Assembly (NCBI GenBank): GCA_046331705.1
Contig: JAXLQJ010000041.1
Coordinates: forward strand, 48,060-68,059
Source: a bacterium
GTDB taxonomy: Bacteria > JADJOY01
Direction: 5' to 3'
Length of the DNA: 20,000 nucleotides
The translations under genes were made by a program, and so were the position numbers. The notes under the pieces were generated by a model that was not told where the DNA came from, searched no databases, and saw only the letters and a program-made list of their open reading frames with translations. This document shows, piece by piece, positions 2,513-18,134 of the stretch (positions are counted from its first letter, which is position 1; each line of letters starts with the position of its first letter).

Positions 2513-2513
2513 A

Positions 2514-2528: not shown

Positions 2529-2570
2529 GGGCGCCGCGGCACTCGCGTCGCACCCGTTCACGAGGCCCGA

Positions 2571-4154: not shown

Positions 4155-5230
4155 GCCCGAGTCGGCTCGAGGTCGCGGCTCTCGCGGAACGCGTCCGCGA
4201 TGCCGCGCGACACTACGGGCCACGCAAGCTCGCGAATGCGCTGGGCGCGGAGCTCGGATACCGGCTGCGCACCCGCGATCCGATCGGCGATCCCACGGCG
4301 CTGATCGTCGACCTCACCACTCACTGTCAGCTGCGCTGTCCGCTCTGTCCCACCGGGCTCGCACGCGAGGGACGCGCGCGCCAGCACATCCCGGTCGAGG
4401 CGTTTCGACGGCTCGTCGATCGCTATGCGCGGACCTCGCTCAGGCTCTTCCTCACGGACTGGGGCGAGCCGTTGCTCCATCCCCAGGCGGCCGAGCTCAT
4501 CGCCTACGCCGAGGCGCGCGGGCTCTGGACTGCGATCTCCACCAACGGGCTCTTCCTACCCGACGAGCTCGCGGCCGGCTTGGTGGCGGCGCGGCTCTCC
4601 CACGCCACCTTCTCGATCGACGGCGCGACCCAGGAGTCCTACGCGCGCTACCGGGTGCGCGGCGAGCTCGACACCGTCCTCGCGAACCTCACGCGCCTGG
4701 TCGCGGCGCGCAATCACGCCGGCTCGCGCCGTCCCCACGTGACCTGGCAATTCCTGGTGTTCCGGCACAACCAGCACGAGGTCGACGCGGCGCGCGCCAA
4801 GGCCCGCGAGCTCGGCGTGGCGTTCGACGCCCGCGGCGCGGGCCTCGGCGTGCACGGCGAGACTCCGCACCGAGCGCCGAGCTCGCCCGAGGCGCTCGCG
4901 TGGCTCGTGGACGATCCGCGCTGGCCCGAATCCCACGCTTACTTCGACGCTTCGCGGCCGTACCTGGAGGACCGCCACTGCTGGTGGCTCTGGAAGGCCT
5001 TGGTGGTCTCGCCCAACGGCTCGGCGCCCCCCTGCTGCTGCACCTTCGAGGAGCGCGACGACGTCGGCAACGTGTTCACCGACGACCCCGAGCGCGTGCG
5101 GCGCTCGCCGCGCGCGCGGCGGATGCGCGCGGTCTTCCGTCGCGAGGCGCTGCCACCGGGCGAGCCGGTGGTGTGCGAGAGCTGCGACGTCTTCCGGCGC
5201 GCCGAGGAACACGCGCACCCTCCGGCATGA
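4151..5230 (+). CDS. Radical SAM protein with C-terminal SPASM/twitch domain (359 aa)
   Basis: GTG at 4151 overlaps the upstream TGA (GTGA coupling). CxxxCxxC 'CQLRCPLC', 'WGEPLLHP', 'STNG', 'FSIDGATQESY'; auxiliary-cluster Cys 'CWWLW...NGSAPPCC...CESC'. Confidence 0.92.
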   Translation: MSPSRLEVAALAERVRDAARHYGPRKLANALGAELGYRLRTRDPIGDPTALIVDLTTHCQLRCPLCPTGLAREGRARQHIPVEAFRRLVDRYARTSLRLFLTDWGEPLLHPQAAELIAYAEARGLWTAISTNGLFLPDELAAGLVAARLSHATFSIDGATQESYARYRVRGELDTVLANLTRLVAARNHAGSRRPHVTWQFLVFRHNQHEVDAARAKARELGVAFDARGAGLGVHGETPHRAPSSPEALAWLVDDPRWPESHAYFDASRPYLEDRHCWWLWKALVVSPNGSAPPCCCTFEERDDVGNVFTDDPERVRRSPRARRMRAVFRREALPPGEPVVCESCDVFRRAEEHAHPPA

Positions 5231-5342: not shown

Positions 5343-6158
5343 CTACTCGTCGTCGAAGCGCACGGGGGCGAGCTGATCGGAGCGAACCCAGCCTTCGCGC
5401 CCGTCGGCGCGACGGATGCGTCGATAGGCGCCGTCCCGTGCCGTCACCACCACCTCCGTCCCTTCCGACGACGCGAACGCGACGGGCTGACTGCCACTCG
5501 GTGCGGCCCGCACCTCGGCGTCGCCGTTGACCACGACCTGGGCGTCCACGCGGGTGAGCACGTAGTGCTTCACGCCCCACGACGCACCCATCAGCACCAG
5601 CAACCCGGCGGCGACGAACGTCGCCGCGCCGCTGGCGACGCTTCCCGACGCGACGCGCCAGGTGACGGCGGCGCACAGCGACACCCAGGCGACCACGGCG
5701 GCGATCGCGAGCTCGCGATGGGTCGCCAGGTCGTACCAGAACGCGAGGCTGCGCACGGCGTAGAGCGGCCCTTTCGCGCCCACCGGCTCGGCGACCTGAC
5801 CGCGCGCGACGGCGAGGTTGTGCCGCAGATCGGGATCGCGCGGCAGGAACAGCTCCGCACGCCGGTAGGCGCGAATGGCCTCGCCCAGCGAGTCGCGCTT
5901 CAGATACGTGTTGCCGAGGTGGAAGAAGAGCACCCCGTTCCGCCAGCCCGCGACGGCCAGCCCCTCGAACAGGCCCTGCGCGCGGTCGTAGCGGCCGTCG
6001 AGATAGGCCTGGACGCCCGCCGCAAAATCCTTCGCGAGCGCGTCGGAGGCCTCGCCTGGCACCGGCCGCTCCGCCGCGGCCCACGCGCCGCACGTGAGCG
6101 CCAACCACGCGCACGCCACCCGCACCGCCGTGCGTCCGCTCGCTCGTCCGCGTTTCAA
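5343..6158 (-). CDS. batE: BatE-like protein: signal peptide, TPR, two TM helices, C-terminal bacterial SH3 domain
   Basis: 'FFHLGNTYLK...LGEAIRAYRRAELFLPRDPDLRHNLAVAR' TPR; two TMs; SH3b 'EVRAAPS...EGTEVVV...RIRRADGREGWV'; last gene of the operon; TTG overlaps the batD TGA. Confidence 0.85.
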   Translation of the reverse strand: MKRGRASGRTAVRVACAWLALTCGAWAAAERPVPGEASDALAKDFAAGVQAYLDGRYDRAQGLFEGLAVAGWRNGVLFFHLGNTYLKRDSLGEAIRAYRRAELFLPRDPDLRHNLAVARGQVAEPVGAKGPLYAVRSLAFWYDLATHRELAIAAVVAWVSLCAAVTWRVASGSVASGAATFVAAGLLVLMGASWGVKHYVLTRVDAQVVVNGDAEVRAAPSGSQPVAFASSEGTEVVVTARDGAYRRIRRADGREGWVRSDQLAPVRFDDE

Positions 6159-7720
6159 GTCGCGCCCCCCCGGGCTCCGGTCCTGAGCTCGTCGTCGATG
6201 CGCGCGATCAGCGTGCGTGCGCGCTCCACGGTGTCGGCGCGGCCGTCACCGGCGCCAGCAGCGCCGCTCGCCGCGGCGTTGCGTGCCCAGCGCTTGAGCT
6301 CGCAAGCCACCAGCAGCTCGCGCACCTCGCCCGCCGTGGCCTTGTTCAAGCCGCCGTCGCTCAGCCGCGACTCGACCTCCTCCGGCGTCAGCACGCCGGG
6401 CGGAAAGTCGACCTTGGCGGCGACGAAGTCGCGGATCACGCGACCGACCTGCTCGTAGAAGAGCGACGCTTCGCCCTCGGTGCGCTCGGCCCGCTCGAGC
6501 TCGTGCTTGGCGCGCCGGAGGGCCCCCCGTTCCCGTGCCCAGCGCGGGTCCGCGGCAGCGCGGCGGGCGCGCTGGATCTGGAAGATCGCGCCACCCGCGC
6601 CGAGCAACGCGGCCACCGCCGCCGCCCAGCCGATCGCGCCGGGGCCGGCCAGCGGATCGACCACCGTGGCGCGCGGCAGCGAGGCGTGGACGCTGCGGAT
6701 CACGTCCGAGTCGTCGACTCCGCGGCCGCTTCCGCTCGTCGCGGCGCTGCCGAGGCCGCGTCCGACGCGCACGCTCAATGCCTCGCTGGCGGCCTCCTTG
6801 AGCCTGCCGAGCGCCGGGTCGACGTACGGCACCGTGATCGGCGGGATCTGGAACTCGCCCGCCCGGGAGCCGAGCAGCGCGAGCTTGAAGGTCTTGCGCG
6901 CCCGGAACGCGCCCGCGGGCTCCAGCACCCATTCGGTGACCGGCTGGTCCGCGACCACCTGGAAGGAGTCGAGCCCGGCGACCCGCGGCGAGGCGATCGC
7001 TGCATCGTCGCCGTAGCTCTGGACCTCGATCGTCAGCGTGGCGGGTTGTCCCTTCTTCACGCTCACGGGCGCGATGGCGGCCGAGATCTCGGTCTCGCCG
7101 ACCGGGGCGCGGCCATCACCGGGCACGGGACGCGCATCGATGCGGATCGGCTGGGTGCGGCCTTCACCAGGAATGGAGCGGCCGCTGTAGAAATCCTCGA
7201 ACATCGAGCCGGCGCCCTCGGCGCTCGCGCCGAGCTTGATCCGGCACGTGAACGACGCGGGGCCGATCTCGCTCGCGCCGGTGCGCGTCGCGAAGAGCGG
7301 TGCCCGGTACTCGTGCACGCGATACGCGACGCCGCTCTCGTTGGTCGAATAGTCGGACTCCACGAACGGCTGTGCTTGCTTCAGCCCAACCAGCTCGGGT
7401 GCGGTGAACTCGAGCTTGTAGATCGGCACGGCGCTCGAGATCTGGATCACCAGCACGACCTGCTGCCCGACGAAGGGCGTGCGATCGGAGACTTGCGCGC
7501 GCAGGAACACGCGCCCGCCTTCCCCGGTGGACTCGAGCGTCTGCGCCGGCGCGTCGACCGTACCGGGCTCGTCCCGCTGCGCCCGCTCGCGGCGCCCATG
7601 GCGCGTGACATCCGGGCGGCCGTCCGGACCCACGCGCGAGCGCGCCGTGGCTGCGTCGGCCACCACCAACGCACCGAGCAACGCGCACGTCACCAGCGCG
7701 CACAGCTGCGGCCCGCGCAC
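6155..7720 (-). CDS. batD: BatD family (oxygen tolerance) protein, exported Ig-like domains plus C-terminal TM
   Basis: 'VFLRAQVSDRTPFVGQQVVLVIQI', 'PVGETEISAAIAPVSVKKGQPATLTIEV', 'AGEFQIPPITVPYVDP' are BatD-like; TM 'IGWAAAVAALLGAGGAIF'. Start is probably GTG 7720 (MRGPQLCALVTCALLGALVVADAATA signal peptide); ATG 7771 is the alternative. The track's 8374 start lies inside the upstream gene. Confidence 0.8.
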   Translation of the reverse strand: MRGPQLCALVTCALLGALVVADAATARSRVGPDGRPDVTRHGRRERAQRDEPGTVDAPAQTLESTGEGGRVFLRAQVSDRTPFVGQQVVLVIQISSAVPIYKLEFTAPELVGLKQAQPFVESDYSTNESGVAYRVHEYRAPLFATRTGASEIGPASFTCRIKLGASAEGAGSMFEDFYSGRSIPGEGRTQPIRIDARPVPGDGRAPVGETEISAAIAPVSVKKGQPATLTIEVQSYGDDAAIASPRVAGLDSFQVVADQPVTEWVLEPAGAFRARKTFKLALLGSRAGEFQIPPITVPYVDPALGRLKEAASEALSVRVGRGLGSAATSGSGRGVDDSDVIRSVHASLPRATVVDPLAGPGAIGWAAAVAALLGAGGAIFQIQRARRAAADPRWARERGALRRAKHELERAERTEGEASLFYEQVGRVIRDFVAAKVDFPPGVLTPEEVESRLSDGGLNKATAGEVRELLVACELKRWARNAAASGAAGAGDGRADTVERARTLIARIDDELRTGARGGAT

Positions 7721-7736
7721 ACGGCGGGCCCGACGC

Positions 7737-10700
7737 TCACCAATCGATTCCGACCGCACCGTCACCGCCATGACCGTCCTGTGAGTCTCCCTCGCCCGAC
7801 GAGCTCTTGCTCGGGCGCCGCTGCTCGCCCGGCAAGCTGTCGAGGATTCGTTGCGCATCCTCGGCCGCCTGCTCGCCCTCGTCCTTGGCGTCGGGCTTGC
7901 GCTCGTTGCCGTGCCCCTGGCCGGCGTTCGCCGACGAATCGTTGCTCTTCTCGCTCTGGAGCCCTTCCCGGCCCGACTCCTTCTCTCCCTTCGCCGGCGG
8001 AACCTTCTCCTGCGGCGCATCGCCGGGGCGCTTCGAGAGCGCGGCGACGTTCGCTTCGATGTCGCCGACCTCGACCTTGGGCTTCGCCCCTCGCTCGCTC
8101 GCGTCGTCCTCGAGCTTGGCGAGCTGCTCGCCCAGCTTGCGCAGCGACTCGGCGAGCTGCTTACGCTCATCGGCGCTCTGCGACTGCTCGAGCTGACGTC
8201 GCACGCGCGCCATCTCGCTGCGAAGCTGCTCGGCGCGCTGTTGCTCGGGACTCTGTTGCGGCTCGGGTGGCCGGTCGGCCATGGCCTGGAGGGCGGCGAG
8301 ATCGAGCTTGAGCTTGCCGACCTGGACCTGACCCTGCTGCCGCTCTGCGGAGCTCGTCGCCTTGCCCACCGCATCCTGCGCCGCCTTGATCTCGAGCTCC
8401 TTGAGCTTGATCTGCGCGTCGACGTCGCGCTGCGGAGTGCCCCCCGCCATCGCCGCCTCGTTCACCTGCATGCGGTCGAGCTCCATCTGCAACTCGAGCG
8501 CCTGCTGCGGATCGCCCGCCTGCGCGATCTCCGCCTTCTTGGCCGCGATCTTGCGCTGCGCCTCCTCACGCGCCGCGGCGAGCTGCTCGGGCGTCATGGC
8601 CTCACGCGGCGGGAGCTGCTGCTGGAGCTGGGCGAGCTGACCCTCGAGGTCGCGCTGCTCGGCTTCGAGCTTGGCGCGCTCCTCGGCGGAGCGCGCCTGA
8701 GCCAGCTTCTTCTGTGTGGCGTCGAGCTTGCGCTCGAGGTCCTCGGCGCGTTGCAGATCCGCCAGCTCCTTCTGCAGCTCCTCGCGTTCCTTCGGGTCCT
8801 TGGTCTTCGCCAGATCTTCCCGCTTCTCGGCGATTCGCTTCGCGAGCTCCGCGGCATCGGGCCGCGGCTCCGGGACCTGAGGCTTCGCCTCGGCGCCGAT
8901 CGCGTCCTCGACCTTGACGAGCGTCGCTTCGAGGTCCCGCTTCTGCGCCTCGAGCTTGCGCCGCTCTTCGGCGGACTTCGCTTGCTCGAGCTTCCGCTCG
9001 GTGTCGTCGAGCTTGCGCTCGAGATCCGCCGCCTGCTCGAGGGCCGCGAGCTCCTGCGCGAGCTGCTCGCGCTGGCGCGGGTCCTTGGCCTTGGCGATCT
9101 CCGTGCGCTTCGCCTCGATCCGTCGTGCCAGGTCCGCGGCGTCCGGTCGCTTCTCGGTACCGGCCTCGTCCTTGTCGGACGCGAGGGATCGTTCGACTCG
9201 CGCGAGCTCGGCGGCTAGCTCGCGCTGCTCCGCCTGCAATTGCTTTCGCTCGTCGGCGGATTTCGCTTGCGTGAGCTTCCGCTCGGTCTCGCCCAGCTTG
9301 CGCTCGAGATCCGCGGCCCGCTCGAGATCCGCCAGCTCTTGCGCCAGCTCCTCGCGCTGGCGCGCGTCCTTCGTCTTCGCCAGGTCGTCGCGCTTCCGTG
9401 CGATCCGCTTCGCCAGCTCGGCCGCGTCCGGACGCTTCTCGGTGCCGGTCTCGTCCTTCTCGGAATCGAGGGATTGCTCGACGCGCGCGAGCTCGGCGCT
9501 GAGCTCGCGCTGCTCCGCCTGCAATCGCTCTCGCTCGTCGGGCGATTTCGCCTGCGCGAGCTTCTTCCCGGTCTCGTCCAGCCTGGCCTTCAGCGCCTCC
9601 GCCAACTGTTGTTCGGCCGCTCGGTCCGGATCGGTCGCGAGCGCGGCTTCCGCCTTGGCCAGCTTCGCTTCCAGGTCGCGCTTCTCCGCGTCGAGCTTGG
9701 CGCGCTCTTCCTTGGACTTGGCCTGCTCCATCTTCTGATCGACCGCGTCGAGCTTCTTCTCGAGCTCACGGGCAGTCGCCAGGTTGGTCATCTGCTCTTT
9801 GCGCACCGCCAGCTCGCGCTTGGCGTCCGCGAGCTGCCGCTCGAGCGCCTCGCGCTCCTTCGGGTCGGTTGCCTCCTTGGCGAGCTTGGTCTCGAGGGTC
9901 GTCACCTCGTCCTCGAGATCGCGGGTGCGGTCCTCGGCGACCTTGCGAAACGCGTCCGTCCGCATGCGCTGCTGCTGCTCGCGCCGCGCGGCGGCCTCGC
10001 GCTCCTTCTTCTCGATCTCCTTCGCCCGCTCGTCGAGCTTCGCCAGCCGATCCTGGATCTCCTGCGCCTGACGCTGGATCTCGGTGCGCTCCTTGCGCTC
10101 CGCGCGTTGCCTGTCCTCGTCGCGCGGATCGAGCTTCTCGCGCGCGGCCTCGAGCTTCTCGCGGGCCTTCGCGGTGTCCGCGAGCTTCGTGCGCGCGTCG
10201 CGCTCCTCCTCGAGCGCCAGCTTCCGCAGCGGGTCGCTCGCACGGGCGATGTCGCGCTCGAGCTCCGTCAGGCGGCGCTCGTTGTTCTTGGCTTGCTCCG
10301 CCGTGAGCTGATCGCGCTTCGCGTCGAGCTCGGCTTGCTGCCGCTCCACGTTGCGCTCGCGCTCCGCCAGCTCTTGCTCGCGCTTGGCGAGCTCGCGCAA
10401 TTGCTCGCGGAGCTGCTCGCTCTGCTGCTGGTCGCGCTGCTCGAGCTCGTCGGGACGGGCGCTCTGCTGTTGCCGATCGCGCTCCGCGGCGAGCTGCGCG
10501 ATCTCGACGCGCATCTCGCCGGCGCGGATTTCCAGGCTGCGCTTCGCCTCGGGCGAGGGCGCATCGGCGAGCGCCTTCTGCGTGGACTTGAGCTCGATCT
10601 CGGCCGCATGGATCCGATCGTTGAGCGACTGCAATCCTTGCTCGCGCAGATCCGACTCGAGCCGCGTGCGCTCGAGACCGAGGTCGCGGCGCTCACGCTC

Positions 10701-12986
10701 GCCGAGCTCGGACTTCGCCAGCTTCTGGTCGATCTCCGAGATCCGCTCGCGCAGCTCGCCACGGCGCTCGATCGCCGCCAGCTCGGCCTCGGCGGGGTTG
10801 CGCTCGGCCTCGAGCTGCTCCCGCTCCGCGCGCTGGCGCTCGCTTTCGCGCCGGGTCGCGTGCTCGTCCTCGCGCAGCTTGTCGAGCGCCGTGTCGAGCG
10901 CGGCGTCGGTCGCGTCGTGTTCCTTCAGGCGGTCGCGCAACGCCGCGTCACGCTGCTCGAGCAGGACGACCGCGTCCTCGATGACGTTGCTCTGCTGCTT
11001 GCGGGCATCCTCGGCCTGCTTGCTCTGCTCGAGCGCCACCTCCTCGAGCGAGCCCGCCAGCTCCTTGGCCTTGTCGGCGCGCTCCTCGAGGTCCTCGTTC
11101 TGCTTCTCGATGGCCTCGTGCTTCTCCTCGATCTTCTGGGTCTTGCGCTCGGTCTGCAGCAGGGCGTCGATGGCTTCGCGCTGCTGCTCGGCGCTCTTGG
11201 CGTTCGCCATGTCGCGGATCAGCTCCTCGGCCGCATCCGTGACCTTCGCCTCGCGATCGAGGGCGTTCGCCTGACGCGCCAGCGAATCCTCGTGGTCGGT
11301 CGCGACGTCGCCCGTGGTCTGCCCGAGCCGCACCAGGCCGGCGGCGGCGGCGTCCGCCGCCCGCTCCGCCGCCTTCACGCGCTGCTCCAGCTCCGCGCTC
11401 TGGTACTCGGCGCCGACCTTTCCGACCTCGGCCTTGAGCTGGCTGAGCTCGTCCTGCGCGATCGACGCGACCGCGGCGCTGAACGCCTGCGCCGCCTTGT
11501 CGATGCTGGGCCGCATCTGCTGATCGATGGCGGCCTGGTGCTCGGCCACCATCTCGCGCAGCTCGGCGCGCTGCGCGTCGGGATCGGAGGTGCGCCGATC
11601 GATCTCGGCGGCTTCCTTGGCGAGCTGCGGGGCGATCGCCGCCCACCGCTCGGCGCGCTCGGTGGCGAGCGCCTCGGTGTGCTTCTCGAGCTCCGCTTGC
11701 GCCCTCCGCAGGATGTCGGACTCGGTCTCGTTCACCTCGCGTTCGATCGCATCCAGCGCAGCGGCTTCCTCCTTCGAGGTCTTGGCGTTCGCGGGGCGCG
11801 CCGTGGAGTCGGCGATGGTGCCAGCGTCGTTGCCGAGCGCCGCCTGCATCGCGCCCATGAGGCTGGCGCTCAGCTCGTCGCCAGCAGCGTGCACGGCTTC
11901 CGTGATCGTGCTCATCGCCTCCGCGTTCGCCTCGCCCGCATCGGTCGTGCCGCTGCGGTTACCCGTGCTCGGCGCTCCGCCGCTCTCGCGCAGCTGGGTG
12001 GCGAGTTGCTCGGGCGTGATCGAGGGCGGCGCGTCGAGCAGTGTCTGCAGGATCGTGTCCTGCTCCTTGCTGTCGCCGCCCGCGCCCGACTGGCCCGATG
12101 TCGTACGACGTCCGCCATGCGCGCTCTGCGCACCGTCCGTGTTGGACGACCCCGCCTGCTCGGCGAACGTCTGCTCGATCGCCTGGTTCGCCGCGCTCTT
12201 CACGTTGGGAACCATCGATCCGGCGCCCACCTGATCCGCCGCGGCGGCCAGCGCGCCCGGCGCGCTGCCGCTTCCTCGTCCCGCCCCGGATCCCGATCCC
12301 GATTGAGAGGCGTCGTCGAGCGCGTCCTGGGCAGCGCCGAGGGCCTGATCGAGGGCCGTCGTGACGTTCGGGTCCTTCGCCAGCGAGCTGGTCGCGACGA
12401 GCAGCTCGTCGAAGAGGCTCGGCAACGGCAGGCGCTGCCCGCTCGTCGCCGCCGCGCTCGCAGGGTTCCCGGCGCCAGCACTGACCCCGGCTCCGAACGA
12501 ATCGCCGGAACTTCGCCCACCGCCGCCACCCTCCTCGCCCGAGGCGAGCCGGATCATGTACTCGAGGTTGTGCTTGGCCTCGATGTCGTCGGGCACCACC
12601 TTGAGCGCGAGCTTGTAGTGGCGGACCGCCTCCTTGAGGTCGCCGAGGCGGAAGTACGTGTTGCCGAGGTTGTACTGGGCGCGCGCGGTGAGGTCCGGAT
12701 CCTCGCCCGCGATCGCGCGAGCATAGGACTGCATCGCACGGTCGTATTGACCGAGCCGGTAGTACACGTTGCCCAGGTTGTAGTGGACGAAGATGTCGGC
12801 GGGATCGGTCTTGAGCGCCTCCTCGAGCACCTTGCGGGCTTCGTCGAAGCGCCCGGCCTGGTACTCGAGGATCGCCTGCTCGACCCGCTCACGGGCCGTG
12901 CGGCTCACCTCCAGCGCCCGCGCCACGCTGCTGCTTGCGACCAGCGAACCGACCACGAACCACGTCTTCCATGCGTTGCCACGCAT
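7737..12986 (-). CDS. Giant BatC-like protein (1749 aa): signal peptide, about 3 TPRs, G/S-rich linkers, long charged helical/coiled-coil repeat region, BatC-type C-terminus
   Basis: Strong SD GGAGGT 7 nt before ATG 12986; TPRs 'HYNLGNVYYRLGQYDRA', 'AQYNLGNTYFRLGDLKEAVRHYKLALKVVPDDIEAKHNLE'; ends 'EDAQRILDSL...IDW'; sits between batB and batD. Confidence 0.85.
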   Translation of the reverse strand: MRGNAWKTWFVVGSLVASSSVARALEVSRTARERVEQAILEYQAGRFDEARKVLEEALKTDPADIFVHYNLGNVYYRLGQYDRAMQSYARAIAGEDPDLTARAQYNLGNTYFRLGDLKEAVRHYKLALKVVPDDIEAKHNLEYMIRLASGEEGGGGGRSSGDSFGAGVSAGAGNPASAAATSGQRLPLPSLFDELLVATSSLAKDPNVTTALDQALGAAQDALDDASQSGSGSGAGRGSGSAPGALAAAADQVGAGSMVPNVKSAANQAIEQTFAEQAGSSNTDGAQSAHGGRRTTSGQSGAGGDSKEQDTILQTLLDAPPSITPEQLATQLRESGGAPSTGNRSGTTDAGEANAEAMSTITEAVHAAGDELSASLMGAMQAALGNDAGTIADSTARPANAKTSKEEAAALDAIEREVNETESDILRRAQAELEKHTEALATERAERWAAIAPQLAKEAAEIDRRTSDPDAQRAELREMVAEHQAAIDQQMRPSIDKAAQAFSAAVASIAQDELSQLKAEVGKVGAEYQSAELEQRVKAAERAADAAAAGLVRLGQTTGDVATDHEDSLARQANALDREAKVTDAAEELIRDMANAKSAEQQREAIDALLQTERKTQKIEEKHEAIEKQNEDLEERADKAKELAGSLEEVALEQSKQAEDARKQQSNVIEDAVVLLEQRDAALRDRLKEHDATDAALDTALDKLREDEHATRRESERQRAEREQLEAERNPAEAELAAIERRGELRERISEIDQKLAKSELGERERRDLGLERTRLESDLREQGLQSLNDRIHAAEIELKSTQKALADAPSPEAKRSLEIRAGEMRVEIAQLAAERDRQQQSARPDELEQRDQQQSEQLREQLRELAKREQELAERERNVERQQAELDAKRDQLTAEQAKNNERRLTELERDIARASDPLRKLALEEERDARTKLADTAKAREKLEAAREKLDPRDEDRQRAERKERTEIQRQAQEIQDRLAKLDERAKEIEKKEREAAARREQQQRMRTDAFRKVAEDRTRDLEDEVTTLETKLAKEATDPKEREALERQLADAKRELAVRKEQMTNLATARELEKKLDAVDQKMEQAKSKEERAKLDAEKRDLEAKLAKAEAALATDPDRAAEQQLAEALKARLDETGKKLAQAKSPDERERLQAEQRELSAELARVEQSLDSEKDETGTEKRPDAAELAKRIARKRDDLAKTKDARQREELAQELADLERAADLERKLGETERKLTQAKSADERKQLQAEQRELAAELARVERSLASDKDEAGTEKRPDAADLARRIEAKRTEIAKAKDPRQREQLAQELAALEQAADLERKLDDTERKLEQAKSAEERRKLEAQKRDLEATLVKVEDAIGAEAKPQVPEPRPDAAELAKRIAEKREDLAKTKDPKEREELQKELADLQRAEDLERKLDATQKKLAQARSAEERAKLEAEQRDLEGQLAQLQQQLPPREAMTPEQLAAAREEAQRKIAAKKAEIAQAGDPQQALELQMELDRMQVNEAAMAGGTPQRDVDAQIKLKELEIKAAQDAVGKATSSAERQQGQVQVGKLKLDLAALQAMADRPPEPQQSPEQQRAEQLRSEMARVRRQLEQSQSADERKQLAESLRKLGEQLAKLEDDASERGAKPKVEVGDIEANVAALSKRPGDAPQEKVPPAKGEKESGREGLQSEKSNDSSANAGQGHGNERKPDAKDEGEQAAEDAQRILDSLPGEQRRPSKSSSGEGDSQDGHGGDGAVGIDW
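8610..9585 (-). repeat. About 3.5 tandem copies of a 285-nt (95-aa) intragenic repeat
   Basis: 'PDAAELAKRI', 'PDAADLARRI' and 'PDAAELAKRI' begin at 9431, 9146 and 8861 (residues 1186, 1281, 1376), exactly 285 nt apart; a half copy precedes them (about 9432-9585). Confidence 0.92.
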
Positions 12987-13998
12987 GACGCCAACCTCCC
13001 AGCGGACTACCCCGCCGTTCGTCGATCAAGGCCTCGACGATGAGCAGCAAGAAGACCAACACCACGATGCCCTGGAACCGTTCCTCCCAATGTTGAGCGC
13101 GTTTGCCACGCAGCTCCTGGGGAATCGTCTTGTCACGGATCTCGCGGTAGAGCCCCGCGACGTTGAGCTCGCCGCTGGCGGATCGCACGTACGAGCCGCC
13201 GGTGAGCCGCGCCATCTCGCGCAGGGTGGCTTCGTCCAGGGAGGTCGCCACCAGCTTACCATCCGGGTCCTTCTTGAGATCCACGCCTGCCGCGTCGAGC
13301 GGGATCGGCACCGGGCTGCCGCTGCCGAGCCCGATGGCGAAGATGCGCACACCCGCCTGCGCGGCCTCCTGGGCCGCCGCGATCGGGTCGGAGCCGTGGT
13401 CCTCGCCGTCGGTGATGAGCAGGATCGCCTTGGAATCCGGGCTGGTGCCCTTGAAGAGCCCCAGCGCGGCCTTCACCGCGGTGCCCACGTAGGTGCCGCG
13501 AATGGGCACCGAATCCGTGTTGACGAGGGTGAGGAAGAGCTCGACCGCCCGGTAGTCGAGCGTCATCGGGCACAGCACGAACGGCTGGCCGGCGAACGGC
13601 AGCAACGCCACCTGATCGCCATCGAGCAAGCTCACGAGCTCCTTGAGCTCGAGCTTGGCGCGCTCCAGGCGGTTGGGCGATGCGTCCTGCGCCAGCATGC
13701 TCAGCGAGGTGTCGATCGCCACCACCAACTCGATGCCGCGCCGTTCCAGCGGCTCCCAGGTGTAGCCCCATTGCGGCCGCGCCGCCGCCAGCAGCAGCAG
13801 CGCGAACGCGACCGCGACCAGCCCTTCCTTGACCAGCCGACGCCGCAAGCTCACCGAGGGCGTCAGCCGCGCCGCCAGCAACGGCGCCAGGAACTCGTGG
13901 AGCTTCCGCCGCCGCAACCGGTGCGCCCACCAGAACACGCCGAGCAGCGCAGGCAGCAGCAGCAACGCCCACAGGTGGTACGGCGCGCCGATCCTCAT
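12889..13998 (-). CDS. batB: BatB-like VWA domain membrane protein
   Basis: N-terminal TM, 'LLLAAARPQWG', MIDAS 'DTSLSM', 'QDASPNRLERAK', 'PMTLDY', 'LITDGED', C-terminal TM; ATGA overlap with batA. Confidence 0.88.
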   Translation of the reverse strand: MRIGAPYHLWALLLLPALLGVFWWAHRLRRRKLHEFLAPLLAARLTPSVSLRRRLVKEGLVAVAFALLLLAAARPQWGYTWEPLERRGIELVVAIDTSLSMLAQDASPNRLERAKLELKELVSLLDGDQVALLPFAGQPFVLCPMTLDYRAVELFLTLVNTDSVPIRGTYVGTAVKAALGLFKGTSPDSKAILLITDGEDHGSDPIAAAQEAAQAGVRIFAIGLGSGSPVPIPLDAAGVDLKKDPDGKLVATSLDEATLREMARLTGGSYVRSASGELNVAGLYREIRDKTIPQELRGKRAQHWEERFQGIVVLVFLLLIVEALIDERRGSPLGGWRHAWQRMEDVVRGRFAGRKQQRGAGAGGEPHGP

Positions 13999-14990
13999 GG
14001 CACCTTCAGGAAGCGCGTGCGCGCCAGCACCGCTTCGGCGATCAGGAGCAGCGCCGCCACGAACAGCACGTACGGGAAGAGCTCGCGCCAGCTCTGGATG
14101 ATCTCCTCGCGGCGGTCGCTGCGCTCGAGCTGATCGATCTGCGCGTAGATGCTCGTCAGCTCGGCGGTATCCGCGGCGCGGAAGTAGCGGCCGCCGGTCT
14201 CCTCGGCGATCCGTTTCATACCCGGCTCGTCGAGCTTCACCTCTTGCTTGATCGTGCGCTGCACGCCGGTGCTGTCGACGAAGGTGAGCGTGGTGTCCTT
14301 ACCCGTGCCGATGCCGATCGTGTACACCTTGACGCCGAATCCCTTGGCGGTGGTGATGGCCTGATCGATCGTGATGTTCCCGGCGTTGCTCACGCCGTCG
14401 GTGAGCAGGATGACGATCCGCGACTTGGCGTCGGTGTCCTTGAGACGCTGCACGGCGCGGGCGAGACCGTTGCCGAGGGCCGTGGTGTCGCCGGCCTCGC
14501 CGACCTGCACGCGGTCGAGCAGGTCGAGGAGGATGTCGTAGTTGAGCGTGAGCGGGCATTTGGTGAACGCCGCCTCGCCGAAGATCACGACTCCGATGCG
14601 GTCGCCCTTGCGCTTGAGCACGAACTCGCGCACCACGTGCTTGAGCGCCTCGAGCCGGCTCACGCGCTGCTGATCGAGGAAGAAGTCGAGGCCCCGCATC
14701 GAGCCCGAGACGTCCATCGACAGCATGATGTCGATGCCGGAGGCCTTGAGCGGATCGCGCGCGCCGGGCAGCTGCGGCCGCGACGCGGCCAGCACCAAGA
14801 GCGCCAGCACCACCATGCGCAGCCCGCCCAGCCAGCCCAGGCGCCGCCGCGGGTTGGTGCCGCCCACCGCCTTGAGCCGCTGGATGGTCGAGTAGACCAG
14901 CGTGGTGCCGTTGACGCGCTGGATCGGCACCGCGAGCACCAGCGGCACGAACACCAGCAACACCAGGAACGCCGGGCTCTCGAGCCTCAT
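13995..14990 (-). CDS. batA: BatA-like VWA domain membrane protein (331 aa)
   Basis: Start ATG 14990 (MRLESPAFLVLL) overlaps the upstream TGA; 'LAASRPQ', 'GIDIMLSMDVSGSM' (MIDAS), 'DRIGVVIFG', 'TALGNGLARAVQRL', 'ILLTDG', 'IAEETGGRYFRA', 'IYAQIDQLE'. Confidence 0.92.
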   Translation of the reverse strand: MRLESPAFLVLLVFVPLVLAVPIQRVNGTTLVYSTIQRLKAVGGTNPRRRLGWLGGLRMVVLALLVLAASRPQLPGARDPLKASGIDIMLSMDVSGSMRGLDFFLDQQRVSRLEALKHVVREFVLKRKGDRIGVVIFGEAAFTKCPLTLNYDILLDLLDRVQVGEAGDTTALGNGLARAVQRLKDTDAKSRIVILLTDGVSNAGNITIDQAITTAKGFGVKVYTIGIGTGKDTTLTFVDSTGVQRTIKQEVKLDEPGMKRIAEETGGRYFRAADTAELTSIYAQIDQLERSDRREEIIQSWRELFPYVLFVAALLLIAEAVLARTRFLKVP

Positions 14991-16183
14991 GCTTCCGGCT
15001 CCCCGGGCGCTTCCCCCTCGAGCTCCACCGTGGGCACCACCGTGCGCGTGAGGTCGATGAAATAACCGATGTCGTGCCACGTGCCGTCGGACTCGGGAGG
15101 CGTCGGCTCGTGCGCGGCGAACTTGACCTTGTCGGTGCCGCCCATGAAGCGGTCGGCGACCTCGTAGGTGTGCTCGCCCAGATGGGGCGCGTCGGCCAGG
15201 GTCCGCTCGATCTCCTCGCTGGTGCGCACCAGCGCGCTCCACCCGTAGCGGCGCGCGAGGTAGCGCCGGAAGATCAGCGAGAGCTCGACGTAGTGCTCCT
15301 GGAAGCGGCGCTCGGCGAGCAGCTTGCGCTCTTCCAGCGCCTGAAGCTCCTTCAGCGCCAGCTCGTGCGGGAGCAGCGGCCGGTCGAGGACCGGCGCCCG
15401 GCGCCGCAGGCGGAAGATCAGGAACGTGAGGAGGGCGGCCACGGACACGACCACCGCGATCGCCGCCGGCAGCAGCCAGAGCGGCAGCGGGATGCCGCCC
15501 GCCTTGGGCGGCTTGATGTCGACGACGTCGGTGGGCTCCGCGCCCTCGGGGATGACCGAGGCCGCGACCACCTGGATCGGCTCGGTGCGCAGCCGGCGAT
15601 TGCGCCCGTCGCGGTCGAGGTACGTGAGCGGCACCGCGGGAATGCGGTAGTCGCCGGGCATGAAGGCTTGCAGCAGATACTTGCGGCGGCTGACGATGCG
15701 TCCGTCGGTGGTGGGCTGGGCGTCGACGTCGCCACCCGGCAGCACCTCGAACCGGTTCATGCGCCGGAACGTCGGGAACGCCACCTGGACGCCCACGGCG
15801 TGATTCACCGCGACCTCGAGCGTGATCACGTCGCCGACCGTCACCACGTTGCGGTCGACCCACGCGAAGGGCACCGCATCGGGCGGGGTCTCGCCCTCGG
15901 CGACCGGAAGATGCAGCACGTCGGGAGGCTGGTTCGCCGGCAATCCGGGAACCGGCGCGAACTCGCTGCCTGCGGACGGCGTCCCGGAGGCAGCATCCTC
16001 CTCGGCGGGCTCGGAGGTGCGACAGCCGATCCCGCCCACCAGCGCGACGGCCACCAGCGCGGCGCAGACCACCCGGCGCACGGGTCCGGCGGCGGCGCCG
16101 GGGCACGCCCGCCACCCGCGCGGTCCCGTCGCGAGCGCACCGCGCAGCGCGGCGATCGAGGGGAAGGCCGTGGCGTCGGTCAC
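14987..16183 (-). CDS. Conserved Bat-operon membrane/lipoprotein (single BatD-like Ig domain + TM + cytoplasmic helical domain)
   Basis: GTG 16183 overlaps the DUF58 TGA; alternative GTG 16081 gives a clean lipoprotein signal (MRRVVCAALVAVALVGGIG-C). 'VDRNVVTVGDVITLEV', 'DIKPP', TM, 'PHELALKELQAL', 'LSLIFRRYL', 'DKVKFA' are typical of the gene between DUF58 and batA. Confidence 0.8.
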   Translation of the reverse strand: MTDATAFPSIAALRGALATGPRGWRACPGAAAGPVRRVVCAALVAVALVGGIGCRTSEPAEEDAASGTPSAGSEFAPVPGLPANQPPDVLHLPVAEGETPPDAVPFAWVDRNVVTVGDVITLEVAVNHAVGVQVAFPTFRRMNRFEVLPGGDVDAQPTTDGRIVSRRKYLLQAFMPGDYRIPAVPLTYLDRDGRNRRLRTEPIQVVAASVIPEGAEPTDVVDIKPPKAGGIPLPLWLLPAAIAVVVSVAALLTFLIFRLRRRAPVLDRPLLPHELALKELQALEERKLLAERRFQEHYVELSLIFRRYLARRYGWSALVRTSEEIERTLADAPHLGEHTYEVADRFMGGTDKVKFAAHEPTPPESDGTWHDIGYFIDLTRTVVPTVELEGEAPGEPEA

Positions 16184-17079
16184 ATCCGTTTCTCGCGCAT
16201 GCGGAAGAATCGCACCAGCTCGTCCATGTACGGCCGGTCGGTGCGCAGGCGGATGTGGTCGACGCGCGCGCGCCGGAAGACGCGCTCGAGACGTTCGTCG
16301 TCGTCGGTGCGGATGCGGCGGAACTCGCGCTGGAACTCGAGGTCGTCGGTGTCGACGAGGATGACCTCGCCGGTCTCCGCGTCCTCGAGCTCGAGCAGGC
16401 CGATCCGCGGCAGCACTTCCTCGCGCGGGTCCACGATCGAGACCGCGATCAGATCGAAGCCCTGGCGCAACGTCATCAGGCTGCGGTCGAAGCCCTCGTC
16501 CTGGAAGTCGGAGACCACGAACAGGATGGCCTTGTGGGAGCTCACGCGGTGCGCGTACTCGAGCGCCGCCGCGAGGTTCGTGCCGCGCCCGCGAGGCTCG
16601 AAGGTGAGCACCTCGCGGATCAGCCGCCACACGTGGCCGCGGCCCTTGCGCGGCGGGATGAACTCCTCGACGTCGTCCGTGAAGAGCAGCATCCCGACCC
16701 GGTCGTTGTTGCGGATCGCGCTCATCGCCAGCACCGCGGCGACCTCGGCGGCGAGCTCGGCCTTGGTGGCCTTCACCGAGCCGAAGCGGTTCGAGCGCGA
16801 GAGGTCCACCGCGATCAGCACCGTGAGCTCGCGCTCCTCGCGGAAGATCTTGACGAACGGCGCCCCCATGCGGGCGGTGACGTTCCAGTCGATCAGTCGG
16901 ATGTCGTCGCCCGGGACGTACTCGCGCACCTCCTCGAACTCCATCCCGCGGCCCTTGAAGGCGCTCACGTACTCGCCCGCGAAGGCCGAGTCGACCATGT
17001 GCGAGCTCTTGATGTGGATGCGCTGGATCTGACTGATGATCTCGGGCGGCAGCAGACCCTGGGTACCGGTGGCGGGCAT
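16180..17079 (-). CDS. DUF58 domain protein (MoxR-associated, VWA-like)
   Basis: 'GEYVSAFKGRGMEFEEVREYVPGDDIRLIDWNVTAR', 'FREERELTV', 'NNDRVG', 'VSDF'. Confidence 0.95.
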   Translation of the reverse strand: MPATGTQGLLPPEIISQIQRIHIKSSHMVDSAFAGEYVSAFKGRGMEFEEVREYVPGDDIRLIDWNVTARMGAPFVKIFREERELTVLIAVDLSRSNRFGSVKATKAELAAEVAAVLAMSAIRNNDRVGMLLFTDDVEEFIPPRKGRGHVWRLIREVLTFEPRGRGTNLAAALEYAHRVSSHKAILFVVSDFQDEGFDRSLMTLRQGFDLIAVSIVDPREEVLPRIGLLELEDAETGEVILVDTDDLEFQREFRRIRTDDDERLERVFRRARVDHIRLRTDRPYMDELVRFFRMREKRM

Positions 17080-17150: not shown

Positions 17151-18134
17151 TCAGGGGACCTCCAGGCTGTCGAAGATCTTGAGCACCACGTCGTCGGTGG
17201 TGAGCCCCTCGGCCTCCGCCTCGTACGACAGGATGATGCGGTGACGAAGCACGTCGAGGCCGATCGACTTGACGTCGAACGGAGTGACGTAGGCGCGGCC
17301 GCGCAACAGCGCGTAGGCGCGCGCCGCCGCCGTGAGCGACAAGCTGGCGCGGGGCGACGCGCCGAACTGGATGAACGGCGCGACGGCGAGGTTGAAGCGT
17401 TTCGGGTCGCGCGTCGCGAACACCACGCGCACGACGTAATCGGCAACCTTGTCGTCCACGTACACCTGATCCACCAGCTTGCGCAGCGCGATCACCTGCT
17501 GCGGCGTGACCACGGCGCTCACGGGATCGGGGACGTGCCCGCTCATGCGCTTGACGATCTCCTTCTCCTCCTCGAGGGTCGGATAGCTGATCTTGACCTT
17601 GAGCATGAAGCGGTCGACCTGCGCTTCGGGCAGCGGGTACGTGCCTTCCTGCTCGATGGGGTTTTGGGTCGCCAGCACCAGGAACGGCGGGTCGAGCTGG
17701 AACGTCGTGTTGGCGATGGTGACCTGCCGCTCCTGCATCGCCTCGAGCAGCGCGCTCTGCACCTTGGCGGGGGCGCGGTTGATCTCGTCCGCCAGGATGA
17801 TGTTGTGGAAGATCGGCCCCTGCTTGATCGTGAACTCGCCGGTCTTCGGCTGGTAGATCTGCGTGCCGACGATGTCCGCCGGCAGCAGGTCGGGCGTGAA
17901 CTGGATGCGCTGAAAGCTCGCCTGCAGCGTCTTGGCGAGCGCCTTCACCGCGGTGGTCTTGGCGAGGCCCGGCAGTCCCTCCATCAGCACGTGGCCGTCG
18001 GCCAGCAGGCCGATGAGCAAGCGCTCGACCATCATTTCCTGACCCACGATCATCTTGCGCACCTCGCTCAGGATGCGTTCGATGATGGGCCGTCGTGCCG
18101 AGATCTCGCTCTGAAGCTCTTCGGGCGTGCTCAT
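17151..18134 (-). CDS. moxR: MoxR-family AAA+ ATPase (MoxR proper)
   Basis: Walker A 'GLPGLAKT', 'RIQFTPDLLPADIVG', Walker B 'ILADEINRAPAKVQSALLEAM', 'ATQNPIEQEGTYPLPEAQVDRF', 'GASPRA'; SD-like GGAAGGA upstream. Confidence 0.97.
   Translation of the reverse strand: MSTPEELQSEISARRPIIERILSEVRKMIVGQEMMVERLLIGLLADGHVLMEGLPGLAKTTAVKALAKTLQASFQRIQFTPDLLPADIVGTQIYQPKTGEFTIKQGPIFHNIILADEINRAPAKVQSALLEAMQERQVTIANTTFQLDPPFLVLATQNPIEQEGTYPLPEAQVDRFMLKVKISYPTLEEEKEIVKRMSGHVPDPVSAVVTPQQVIALRKLVDQVYVDDKVADYVVRVVFATRDPKRFNLAVAPFIQFGASPRASLSLTAAARAYALLRGRAYVTPFDVKSIGLDVLRHRIILSYEAEAEGLTTDDVVLKIFDSLEVP

What the first reader, a model, noticed from the sequence alone, without database searches (positions are those of the whole stretch)
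7737..12986. Giant 1749-aa BatC: TPR head and 'DW' tail separated by about 1500 aa of mostly helical insert
Seen: signal peptide and TPRs in the first ~150 aa, G/S/A-rich linkers to ~aa 350, then ~1300 aa of E/K/R/Q/A/L-rich helix. No Cys seen, and no F/W/Y from residue 1014 to 1748. It ends 'EDAQRILDSL...IDW'. Established (recollection): BatC is about 250 aa, with TPRs, a short Q/K/D-rich linker and an 'A..LL.A...(K)DW' tail. Inference: the linker has become a very long exported rod or tether, about 7 times the normal protein length, that could span the periplasm, act as a ruler/scaffold, or be a holdase arm of the MoxR-VWA machine. This is the best candidate for an undescribed system in the window.
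Basis: partly seen in the sequence, partly recalled or inferred. Interest (0 to 1): 0.8.

Follow-up and report, generated by a model that had tools for sequence, protein, structure and literature searches.

The report
Giant BatC with long helical insert
A normally small envelope protein of the widespread but poorly understood Bat (MoxR-VWA) system has, in one uncultured wastewater lineage, kept both conserved ends while its linker grew into about 1,250 residues of repeated helices.

Summary
ORF 7737-12986 (-) encodes 1749 aa with no Cys and no F/W/Y between 1014 and 1748, and it ends in IDW. It lies between batB and batD in a complete MoxR-DUF58-BatA-BatB-BatC-BatD-BatE operon. Its three-TPR head and its C-terminal 'EDAxRILxxL...DW' tail both align with ordinary BatC proteins, which are about 230-300 aa.

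The roughly 1,550 residues between them replace the usual low-complexity linker. This stretch has two parts: a G/S/A-rich segment (149-400) and an array of about 28 amphipathic helices (401-1640), which includes tandem 95-aa repeats.

It is not an assembly artefact. Colinear contigs occur in independent metagenomes. Orthologs of about 1,500-1,750 aa occur in 5 of the 6 genomes of its small phylum. Strain SNPs are 22 synonymous to 4 non-synonymous.

In about 1,000 genomes searched from other phyla, tail-bearing frames never exceeded 1,072 aa, and the longest I inspected were BatB-BatC fusions or stop-free read-through.

The same genome also has a second complete Bat operon with a normal 303-aa BatC, so the giant is a diverged paralog.

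The function is inferred only: a long semi-rigid tether or scaffold between two conserved docking modules. I rate it a new variant of a known kind, of moderate interest.

The parts
7737..12986 (-). Giant batC gene (1749 codons plus the stop codon at 7737-7739)
   Evidence: ORF list and translation. Orthologs are colinear over the full length. Contigs from other runs are colinear.
12909..12986 (-). aa 1-26: predicted Sec signal peptide or signal anchor (MRGNAWK, a hydrophobic stretch, then ARA/LE)
   Evidence: Read from the sequence. It is conserved in the orthologs. In BatB-BatC fusions the equivalent segment follows an Arg-rich loop after BatB's last TM helix. No signal-peptide predictor was available.
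12543..12908 (-). aa 27-148: three-TPR head
   Evidence: Pfam TPR_1, TPR_2 and TPR_11. NCBIfam TPR_BatC_Lepto matches aa 20-148 to profile positions 14-143 of 214. Identity to the two orthologs is 89% and 66%. PDB sequence hits fall only in this part.
11787..12542 (-). aa 149-400: G/S/A-rich, probably disordered linker with short conserved islands (e.g. LPLPSLFDELL, VPNVKSAAN, EQD..LQTLLDAPP)
   Evidence: Composition. Alignment A1. It is the least conserved part, at 48% and 34% identity.
8067..11786 (-). aa 401-1640: array of amphipathic helices (the insert proper)
   Evidence: AF2 gives 28 helices of 17-93 aa, mean pLDDT 71. Hydrophobic periodicity peaks at 3.6-3.67 with z about 10. Breaks fall at K-(S/T/D)-P-type motifs. 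Matches to this part are found only in the same family, in 5 of 401 genomes.
8487..9821 (-). aa 1056-1500: tandem 95-aa repeats (three clear copies at 1151-1245, 1246-1340 and 1341-1435, with diverged flanking copies). Each copy is modelled as helices of about 17, 33 and 32 residues.
   Evidence: TRF finds a 285-nt period, 2.2 copies, 84% matches, at 8962-9582. Fragment BLASTP gives 54-75% identity at offsets of 95 and 190. AF2 helix boundaries. The other-genus ortholog lacks 206 of these 445 residues.
7740..8066 (-). aa 1641-1749: G/S/K/E-rich segment and the conserved BatC tail
   Evidence: Composition and alignment.
7740..7883 (-). aa 1702-1749: BatC tail motif (EDAQRILDSL ... GIDW-COOH)
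   Evidence: Alignment A2 with 22 other tails has L14 and W48 invariant. The profile hits once per genome, at 31-43 bits in the five giants and 33 bits in a local hmmsearch.
12889..13998 (-). batB (VWA, 369 aa). Its last 98 nt overlap the start of batC in another frame.
   Evidence: Pfam VWA and NCBIfam VWA_BatB_Lepto. The same overlap is seen in a relative.
13995..14990 (-). batA (BatA_N plus VWA, 331 aa)
   Evidence: Pfam BatA and VWA; NCBIfam VWA_BatA_Lepto.
14987..16183 (-). Membrane protein with a BatD-type domain (398 aa)
   Evidence: Pfam BatD, E = 3.2e-8.
16180..17079 (-). DUF58 protein (299 aa)
   Evidence: Pfam DUF58, E = 5.5e-76.
17151..18134 (-). MoxR-type AAA+ ATPase (327 aa)
   Evidence: Pfam AAA_3, E = 8.8e-67, and AAA_lid_2.
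6155..7771 (-). batD (538 aa from the ATG at 7771). It overlaps the end of batC by 35 nt.
   Evidence: Pfam BatD, E = 5.8e-13. The start codon was chosen by eye.
5343..6158 (-). batE (TPR plus SH3, 271 aa)
   Evidence: Weak Pfam hits to SH3_3, SH3_4 and TPR.

Best explanation
This is a true BatC, the TPR protein encoded between batB and batD in the Bat (MoxR AAA+ / DUF58 / VWA) envelope operon. In it, the normally short, low-complexity linker between the exported three-TPR head and the conserved C-terminal 'helix ... DW-COOH' tail has been replaced by about 1,550 residues.

Shown:
- The head, the tail and the gene order are those of BatC.
- The insert is a G/S/A-rich stretch followed by about 28 amphipathic helices, and it grew at least partly by tandem duplication of a 95-aa unit.
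- The gene is intact, under purifying selection, and conserved at 1,500-1,750 aa across the two genera of a small uncultured phylum.
- It sits in a second complete Bat operon, beside an ordinary one with a 303-aa BatC.

Inferred:
- Head and tail are the two docking modules of BatC. They act in the periplasm, next to the periplasm-facing VWA domains of BatA and BatB.
- Linker length varies from about 50 to about 250 aa across phyla and reaches about 1,550 aa here. The linker is therefore a tether whose exact length is not fixed by the machine.
- In this paralog the floppy tether has become a long, semi-rigid, highly charged helical spacer or scaffold. That would let the tail, or whatever binds along the helices, work tens of nanometres from the membrane-anchored Bat complex. 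Laid end to end as helices, about 1,240 aa would measure about 185 nm. Folded back into hairpins or three-helix units it would be roughly a third of that. Both figures are arithmetic, not measurements.

What the Bat machine itself does is still unknown.
For: Identity as BatC:
- Operon order is MoxR, DUF58, BatD-domain protein, BatA, BatB, this gene, BatD, BatE.
- The best NCBIfam hit is TPR_BatC_Lepto.
- The tail aligns with 22 BatC tails from many phyla.
- The tail profile hits exactly once in each of 5 genomes of the lineage, always at the end of the giant frame.

The linker is variable and normally low-complexity: it is Q/K/D-rich or D/G-rich in short BatCs. AF2 of a 261-aa BatC with 139 rows gives pLDDT 97 for the TPR domain, under 50 for the linker and 66-79 for the tail helix.

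The insert is helical and repetitive.

It is real and under selection:
- Orthologs are 63% and 38% identical and colinear, with indels concentrated in the repeat zone.
- A contig from another run covers 7000-11339 without gaps, including the repeats, and a second covers 11341-13500.
- Of 26 strain SNPs, 22 are synonymous; pN/pS is about 0.06.
- Five short contigs in an RNA library fall in batC (4) and batB (1). This is only a weak hint of transcription.

Rarity, using the tail profile:
- In 401 genomes of about 275 families, the 83 matches outside the lineage lie in frames of 174-728 aa.
- In 301 genomes of the phylum of a Myxococcaceae MAG, 159 match and the longest frame is 1,072 aa. The six longest were inspected. 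Five are in-frame BatB-BatC fusions, and one is stop-free upstream read-through.
- In 301 genomes of the phylum of a Bacteroidales MAG, 169 match and the 150 listed frames are at most 645 aa.
- The helical part alone matches only the same family, in 5 of 401 genomes.

Paralogy: a second full Bat operon lies on contig C4, and the small BatC is present in 6 of 6 genomes of the phylum.

Periplasmic setting: the VWA domain of the BatA-like BB0173 faces the periplasm (PMC5700661, passages read). In the fusions an Arg-rich loop separates BatB's last TM helix from BatC's N-terminal hydrophobic segment.
Against: - No partner of the head or the tail is known.
- The NCBIfam BatC model is matched below its curated cut-off and only over the head.
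- The global arrangement of the helices is not predicted (pTM 0.26), so neither length nor rigidity is established.
- Hydrophobic periodicity of 3.6-3.67 fits packed or self-associating amphipathic helices as well as it fits a monomeric spacer.
- Repeat number differs between orthologs. That fits a tolerated expansion as well as an adaptive one.
- The tail-profile survey is a floor. It misses the genome's own small BatC paralog because of compositional bias, so long forms with divergent tails could be missed elsewhere.
- The giant was not found in 1 of the 6 genomes of the lineage; that genome is 74% complete.
- One relative shows an apparent frameshift in a G-run near aa 175.
Confidence: 0.6

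Rival explanations
1. The helical array self-associates as a dimeric or higher coiled coil or bundle. It would then form a fibrous element of the envelope, such as a periplasmic or surface-associated cytoskeleton-like fibre, or a strut that sets envelope spacing. TPR head and DW tail would be its two anchoring ends.
For: The amphipathic periodicity is strong (z about 10 at 3.6-3.67) and conserved across 1,200 residues. The composition (L 11-12%, A 14-19%, 46-48% charged) resembles fibrous helical proteins; that comparison is from my own knowledge. The structural look-alikes are antiparallel helical hairpins and bundles such as chemoreceptor, SMC/MukB and spectrin repeats. Selection acts on the whole length.
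Against: The periodicity does not peak at the heptad value of 3.5. Helices are broken every 17-93 residues by Pro/Gly motifs. The VIA Z-scores, at most 10.6, are below what the tool's own notes say is meaningful for helical bundles. No oligomer prediction was run.
Confidence: 0.2
2. The insert is a largely neutral runaway expansion of a linker on which there is little length constraint. The protein would work exactly like a short BatC, and the helices would have no function beyond connecting head and tail.
For: Linker length and composition vary widely among BatCs. Growth by recent tandem duplication is visible, with 54-75% identical 95-aa copies. Orthologs differ by whole repeat units. A normal BatC operon is present as a possible back-up.
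Against: pN/pS is about 0.06, with 22 of 26 SNPs synonymous, all within codons 293-1575. Helix-forming, amphipathic character is maintained over about 1,240 residues. Size is retained at 1,500-1,750 aa across two genera, with 34-40% identity in the helical parts. No comparable expansion was seen in about 1,000 other genomes, although their linkers are equally free to vary.
Confidence: 0.15
3. The helical array is a client-binding (holdase or chaperone-like) or ion- or polymer-binding arm of the MoxR-VWA machine.
For: MoxR ATPases are generally regarded as chaperone-like (own knowledge). The array offers a very large charged amphipathic surface.
Against: MoxR and DUF58 have no signal peptides and are presumably cytoplasmic, whereas BatC carries an export signal. 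Nothing tested here bears on this idea.
Confidence: 0.05
4. It is an artefact: a mis-assembled, chimeric or collapsed-repeat contig, or a pseudogene that happens to stay open in GC-rich DNA.
For: The DNA is 70% G+C, which gives many long spurious frames. The gene contains 285-nt tandem repeats. A relative's assembly breaks inside the repeats, and another relative shows a frameshift.
Against: A relative has a full-length colinear ortholog with the same head and tail. Contigs from other runs and studies are colinear across the repeats without indels. The SNP pattern is 22 synonymous to 4 non-synonymous in this frame. The tail motif sits exactly at the stop codon.
Confidence: 0.02

Closest known systems
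BatC of the Bacteroides aerotolerance (Bat) operon and its homologs (NCBIfam NF047507 TPR_BatC_Lepto; usually annotated 'tetratricopeptide repeat protein')
   Same: It has the same position between batB and batD. It has an N-terminal hydrophobic segment, three TPRs and a C-terminal 'EEAERILNAL ... KDW' tail.
   Different: It is 1749 aa against about 230-300 aa. The Q/K/D- or D/G-rich low-complexity linker is replaced by a G/S/A stretch plus about 1,240 aa of repeated amphipathic helices. It scores below the curated cut-off of the Leptospira-specific model. It is a second BatC in a genome that also has a normal one.
BatB-BatC fusion proteins (reported for Leptospira biflexa in PMC3557215, passages read; seen here in several phyla)
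   Same: They are another way in which BatC-bearing frames become long. They have the same TPR and tail modules.
   Different: The fusions are about 580-730 aa and owe their length to an added VWA domain, not to the linker. In the window, batB and batC are separate frames that overlap by 98 nt.
TolA domain II and similar long helical periplasmic tethers (analogy recalled from general knowledge; not tested)
   Same: It is an exported, Ala- and charge-rich helical region that connects a membrane-proximal part to a distal binding module.
   Different: There is no sequence relationship: Pfam gives nothing but TPR families at E <= 0.01. It is several times longer and is segmented into 28 helices. 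It has no TM anchor of the TolA type.
Chains of helical bundles or hairpins (spectrin repeats, talin, vinculin, alpha-catenin, SMC/MukB arms)
   Same: The AF2 model's best structural look-alikes are of this kind. The 95-aa repeat is modelled as three helices.
   Different: The matches are not significant. The best Foldseek E-value is 0.043 with TM <= 0.12, and VIA Z <= 10.6 is below the level of about 13 that the tool says helical proteins need. There is no sequence similarity.

Membership tests
BatC (TPR protein of the Bat/MoxR-VWA operon) | Encoded between a VWA-domain batB and batD, in an operon with MoxR, DUF58 and batA | tested here: met
   Pfam and NCBIfam hits on all neighbouring genes.
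BatC (TPR protein of the Bat/MoxR-VWA operon) | N-terminal export or anchor segment followed by a three-TPR domain that matches a BatC model | tested here: inconclusive
   TPR_BatC_Lepto is the top NCBIfam hit (E = 1.7e-24, 86.5 bits, aa 20-148 to profile 14-143 of 214). This is below the curated cut-off of 175, which was set for Leptospira proteins. The head aligns with 50 BatC heads, with N80, G82 and N114 invariant.
BatC (TPR protein of the Bat/MoxR-VWA operon) | C-terminal motif: short helix '(E/D)(E/D)A.(R)(I/L)L..(L)', then 20-30 residues, then a terminal (D/N)W. This definition is derived here from loci, not from a published one. | tested here: met
   Alignment A2. The profile gives 40.2 bits, E = 3.5e-9, with one hit in the genome, and 33 bits in a local hmmsearch.
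BatC (TPR protein of the Bat/MoxR-VWA operon) | Size of about 230-350 aa with a short low-complexity linker | tested here: not met
   The protein is 1749 aa and its linker is about 1,550 aa. This is the point of difference. I treat it as a variant, not as grounds for exclusion.
Canonical heptad coiled coil | Hydrophobic periodicity of 3.5 sustained over long stretches | tested here: inconclusive
   The power peak is at 3.6-3.67 (z 7-10). At 3.5 it is weaker (z 2-6). No dedicated coiled-coil predictor was available.
Single alpha-helix (ER/K) domain | Very high E/K/R content, very few hydrophobic residues, and enriched i/i+4 opposite-charge pairs | tested here: not met
   L is 11-12% with clear amphipathic periodicity. 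The i/i+4 salt pairs are only z 1.2-2.3 above shuffles.
Spectrin-type three-helix repeat | Structural match of a repeat unit to solved spectrin repeats | tested here: inconclusive
   VIA gives Z 7.8-8.2 to spectrin entries, below the level that is meaningful for helical folds. The model is 1,200 residues with pTM 0.26.
TolA (domain II) | Sequence membership in the TolA families | tested here: not met
   No family other than TPR families at E <= 0.01 in Pfam or NCBIfam.

The most novel reading that the evidence does not exclude
The giant BatC is a mechanical element. It would be a chain of helical bundles tens of nanometres long, comparable in principle to spectrin or talin. One end would be held at the inner-membrane BatA/BatB VWA complex by the TPR head. 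The other end would be held by the tryptophan-terminated tail, which docks into a TPR groove or a VWA metal site of another Bat subunit.

Head-to-tail or subunit-to-subunit linkage would then build a periplasmic lattice or ruler that is remodelled by the MoxR ATPase. If so, ordinary BatCs do the same thing with a floppy linker. The long-unexplained Bat system would be an envelope-tethering or envelope-spacing machine rather than an oxidative-stress system.
Probability: 0.12. Interest if true: 0.75.

Novelty: new variant of a known kind. Interest (0 to 1): 0.5.

Why it matters
The Bat/MoxR-VWA operon is very common. The BatC tail alone was found in 88 of 401, 159 of 301 and 169 of 301 sampled genomes. 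Yet its function is still described as elusive (PMC3557215, passages read).

This lineage offers a natural experiment. The same two end modules are separated by about 1,550 residues instead of about 100, in a paralogous operon next to a normal one. That constrains models: head and tail do not need a fixed spacing. It also points to the conserved '...DW-COOH' tail as a testable docking signal that I did not find mentioned in the three literature searches. Finally, it provides a repeat-built helical protein whose length could be measured and varied.

If the insert is only a tolerated expansion, the finding is a curiosity of an uncultured wastewater phylum.

Tried and rejected
- **Complex prediction, TPR head (A6) against tail (A2).** Score 0.02 against a mark of 0.32, no verdict, controls not run. 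This says nothing either way about head-tail binding. Tail against VWA, BatD or BatE could not be tried because the cap is one job.
- **The search for homologous proteins with the whole protein.** It gave 34 generic multi-TPR proteins, each covering at most 8% of the query. With aa 1056-1749 it gave nothing at E <= 0.001. Both are uninformative, because neither the query nor two orthologs are in that collection and candidates were capped at 8000.
- **The search of protein representatives with 20 short BatCs (A3).** The best 150 were all long multi-TPR proteins of 809-3855 aa with 6-32 matched stretches. That is TPR cross-matching, so the result is useless for BatC lengths.
- **Foldseek against PDB with the 1,200-residue model.** No hit at E <= 0.001. 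The VIA second look gave only generic helical hairpins.
- **ESM Atlas look-alikes for aa 401-1640.** No usable hit.
- **PDB sequence search.** Only TPR-head matches.
- **AF2 of a short BatC.** It returns no contacts, so it could not show whether the tail docks on the head.
- **'Joints' in read laying.** All have sides of 20-22 letters. By the tool's own note these are attributable to other organisms or repeats. I do not take them as rearrangements.
- **Parts of the gene without RNA-contig cover.** These are not evidence of anything.
- **Phylum samples around G165 and G279.** They turned out to hold only 5 and 3 genomes.
- **Three named loci** (the Phycisphaerales, Pyrinomonadaceae and Nitrospirota MAGs). 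Their genomes had no tail match, so their TPR hits may not be BatC.
- **Supplementary files of papers** were not consulted. Figure S1 of PMC3557215, which shows bat gene maps in spirochetes, might show other unusual gene lengths.
Full report
**What is there.** The window is about 70% G+C and full of spurious long frames. The frame at 7737-12986 (-) is nevertheless a real gene. It starts with ATG and encodes 1749 aa. It has no Cys. After F1013 the next aromatic residue is the terminal W1749.

It lies in a co-directional operon:
- MoxR AAA+ ATPase, 17151-18134
- DUF58, 16180-17079
- a membrane protein with a BatD-type domain, 14987-16183
- BatA, 13995-14990
- BatB, 12889-13998
- this gene
- BatD, 6155-7771
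- BatE (TPR plus SH3), 5343-6158

batB and batC overlap by 98 nt in different frames. The same arrangement is visible in a relative.

**Is it BatC?**
- *Head.* Pfam sees TPRs only at about aa 35-134. The best NCBIfam family is TPR_BatC_Lepto (86.5 bits, aa 20-148 against profile positions 14-143 of 214). That is below the cut-off of 175 set for this Leptospira-specific model.
- *Tail.* I read the ORFs between batB and batD at loci from many phyla. They are 195-550 aa and end in a shared motif of the type '...M.KEDAERILNAL.DDEK...(about 20 residues)...GKDW'.
- The window's last 48 residues (EDAQRILDSL...GIDW) align with 22 such tails. The Leu of 'IL' and the final Trp are invariant.
- A profile of these tails hits exactly once in each of five genomes of the lineage, always at the end of the giant frame (31-43 bits).

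**What lies between the ends.** In ordinary BatCs the linker is low-complexity: Q/K/D/N-rich in most, D/G/S-rich in the Myxococcaceae-type genomes. AlphaFold2 of a 261-aa BatC with a 139-row alignment gives a confident TPR domain (pLDDT 97), a linker below 50 and a tail helix at 66-79.

In the window's protein:
- aa 149-400 are G/S/A-rich with a few conserved islands.
- aa 401-1640 are 34-48% D/E/K/R, 7-12% L and 14-23% A, with few other hydrophobic residues.
- AlphaFold2 of aa 401-1600 (three-row alignment) predicts about 93% helix in 28 helices of 17-93 residues, with mean pLDDT 71 but pTM 0.26. The helices are credible. Their mutual arrangement is not.
- Hydrophobic residues recur with a period of 3.6-3.67 (z up to 10 against shuffles) rather than 3.5. 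Opposite-charge pairs at i/i+4 are barely enriched. These are amphipathic helices, not a textbook heptad coiled coil and not an ER/K single helix.
- Residues about 1056-1500 are tandem 95-aa repeats. Three copies are 54-75% identical. Each copy is modelled as helices of about 17, 33 and 32 residues.
- No Pfam family, PDB sequence or Atlas cluster matches anything beyond the TPR head. Structural look-alikes are generic helical hairpins and bundles below the level of significance.

**Is it real?**
- A same-genus genome has a 1747-aa ortholog, 63% identical and colinear from Met to the final IDW. A genome of the other genus has a 1503-aa ortholog, 38% identical.
- By region, identity to these two orthologs is 89/66% in the head, 60-76/34-40% in the helical parts and 79/44% in the tail. 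The shorter ortholog lacks 206 of the 445 residues of the repeat zone.
- Two further relatives have the gene split at contig ends inside the repeats, or carry an apparent frameshift in a G-run near aa 175.
- Near-identical DNA is held by 14 runs from 9 coded studies of activated-sludge, wastewater and digester metagenomes. One of these may be the source of the window.
- In one run a single contig covers 7000-11339 without gaps, repeats included, and another covers 11341-13500. A run from a different study covers 7000-9302 and 9367-12582.
- The 26 single-base differences that these contigs show inside the gene are 22 synonymous and 4 non-synonymous (pN/pS about 0.06), all in codons 293-1575. 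The frame is therefore under purifying selection through the linker and helices.
- One RNA library holds five short contigs, four in batC and one in batB. This is no more than a hint of transcription.

**How unusual is it?** The phylum that holds this genome has only six species-level genomes in the collection: one family, two genera. The giant is present in five of them. The sixth is 74% complete.

| Sample searched with the tail profile | Genomes with a match | Frame lengths outside the lineage |
|---|---|---|
| 401 genomes of about 275 families | 88 (83 outside the lineage) | 174-728 aa, median 283 |
| 301 genomes, phylum of a Myxococcaceae MAG | 159 | up to 1,072 aa |
| 301 genomes, phylum of a Bacteroidales MAG | 169 | 150 listed frames, at most 645 aa |

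- In the first sample, 69 frames are at most 460 aa and 14 are 581-728 aa. Two frames of about 600 aa were checked, one from this sample and one from the Myxococcaceae-type phylum. Both are VWA+TPR (BatB-BatC) fusions.
- In the second sample I read the six longest frames. Five are in-frame BatB-BatC fusions and one is stop-free upstream read-through. Their BatC parts are about 330-420 aa by eye.
- The helical part alone (aa 641-1500) finds only the same family in 401 genomes, 5 of 401.
- A pattern-seeded scan of 185,579 species genomes returned 273 confirmed relatives. Of the 80 kept, only four covered more than the head, and all four are MAGs of this lineage.

Caveats:
- The tail profile missed this genome's own small BatC because of compositional bias, so all these tallies are floors.
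- One search ran with a stricter first look.
- One genome (G600) is unpublished. It enters only that tally.

Three full-text searches listed no paper on an enlarged BatC. I read passages of PMC3557215 and PMC5700661 only.

**A second Bat operon.** Contig C4 of the same genome carries another complete set, with the following identities to the window's genes: MoxR 64%, DUF58 51%, BatD-domain protein 28%, BatA 42%, BatB 38%, BatC head 32%, BatD 22%, BatE 29%. Its BatC is an ordinary 303-aa protein with a Q/D/K/P-rich linker and a '...REQAEGLLRSF...GRRDW' tail. This small BatC is present in 6 of 6 genomes of the phylum at 56-71% identity. The giant is therefore a diverged paralog in a second system, not the lineage's only BatC.

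**How it probably works.**
- *Shown:* two conserved end modules joined by a lineage-specific, selected, repeat-built helical array.
- *From the literature:* the VWA domain of a BatA-like protein faces the periplasm (PMC5700661), and Bat function is unresolved (PMC3557215).
- *Inferred:* BatC is exported. Its TPR head and its Trp-terminated tail are docking modules that act beside the VWA domains of BatA and BatB. The linker is a tether whose length the machine tolerates. In this paralog the tether has become a long, charged, semi-rigid spacer or scaffold.

I put 0.6 on this package. Identity as BatC is about 0.9. Most of the remaining doubt concerns the role of the insert.

The rivals are a self-associating fibre (0.2), a mostly neutral expansion (0.15), a client-binding arm (0.05) and an artefact (0.02). 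The one complex prediction allowed (head against tail) gave no verdict and is not used as evidence.

**Verdict.** 'Undescribed system' is an overstatement. This is a striking size variant of one component of a known but poorly understood system, confined, as far as searched, to a small uncultured phylum found in wastewater communities. Novelty: new variant of a known kind. Interest: 0.5.

Noticed in passing
G000 contig C4, locus L129 about 6331-14896 (minus strand); small BatC at L002:1072-1983 (-): There is a second complete Bat operon in the same genome, with a normal 303-aa BatC that ends in RRDW. The small BatC is present in 6 of 6 genomes of the phylum.
   Followed up: yes
window 12889-12986: batB and batC overlap by 98 nt in different frames. 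A relative shows the same arrangement. In other phyla the two genes are often fused in frame, so this overlap may be a remnant of such a fusion or a means of translational coupling.
   Followed up: partly
L017 about 7640-7760 (relative G003): There is an apparent frameshift in a G-rich run near codon 175 of the giant batC ortholog. The TPR head and the rest lie in different frames. It could be an assembly error or a real disruption.
   Followed up: partly
Loci L009-L015, L028-L096 and others: The BatC C-terminal motif ('EEAERILNAL...KDW', with spirochete variants such as 'RILDYI...EDW') is conserved across many phyla, always at the very C-terminus. I found no mention of it in the passages and listings I saw.
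   Followed up: partly
window 14987-16183 (-): An extra 398-aa membrane protein with a BatD-type domain sits between DUF58 and batA. A counterpart (28% identity) sits at the same place in the second operon.
   Followed up: no
window 2571-4154 (+), 4100-5230 (+), 1005-4223 (-): Downstream of the operon are an O-antigen-ligase-like (Wzy_C) frame and a radical SAM/SPASM frame on the plus strand. A long minus-strand frame with TIG and beta-propeller hits overlaps them. Which frames are real was not resolved.
   Followed up: no
window 18435-20000 (+): A Cys-rich frame that runs off the end of the window has a weak DUF1554 hit (E = 3.4e-4, below cut-off).
   Followed up: no
Whole genome G000 and its relatives: The phylum holding this 8.2-Mb, roughly 70% G+C genome has only six species genomes in the collection. 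Near-identical DNA recurs in activated-sludge, wastewater and digester metagenomes from 9 coded studies.
   Followed up: partly
Loci L123-L127 (Myxococcaceae-type phylum): The BatC linkers there are D/G/S-rich ('DGGSDGGQGDGG...') rather than Q-rich, and their tails contain 'NLQLWRFQ'. Linker composition seems to track lineage.
   Followed up: no
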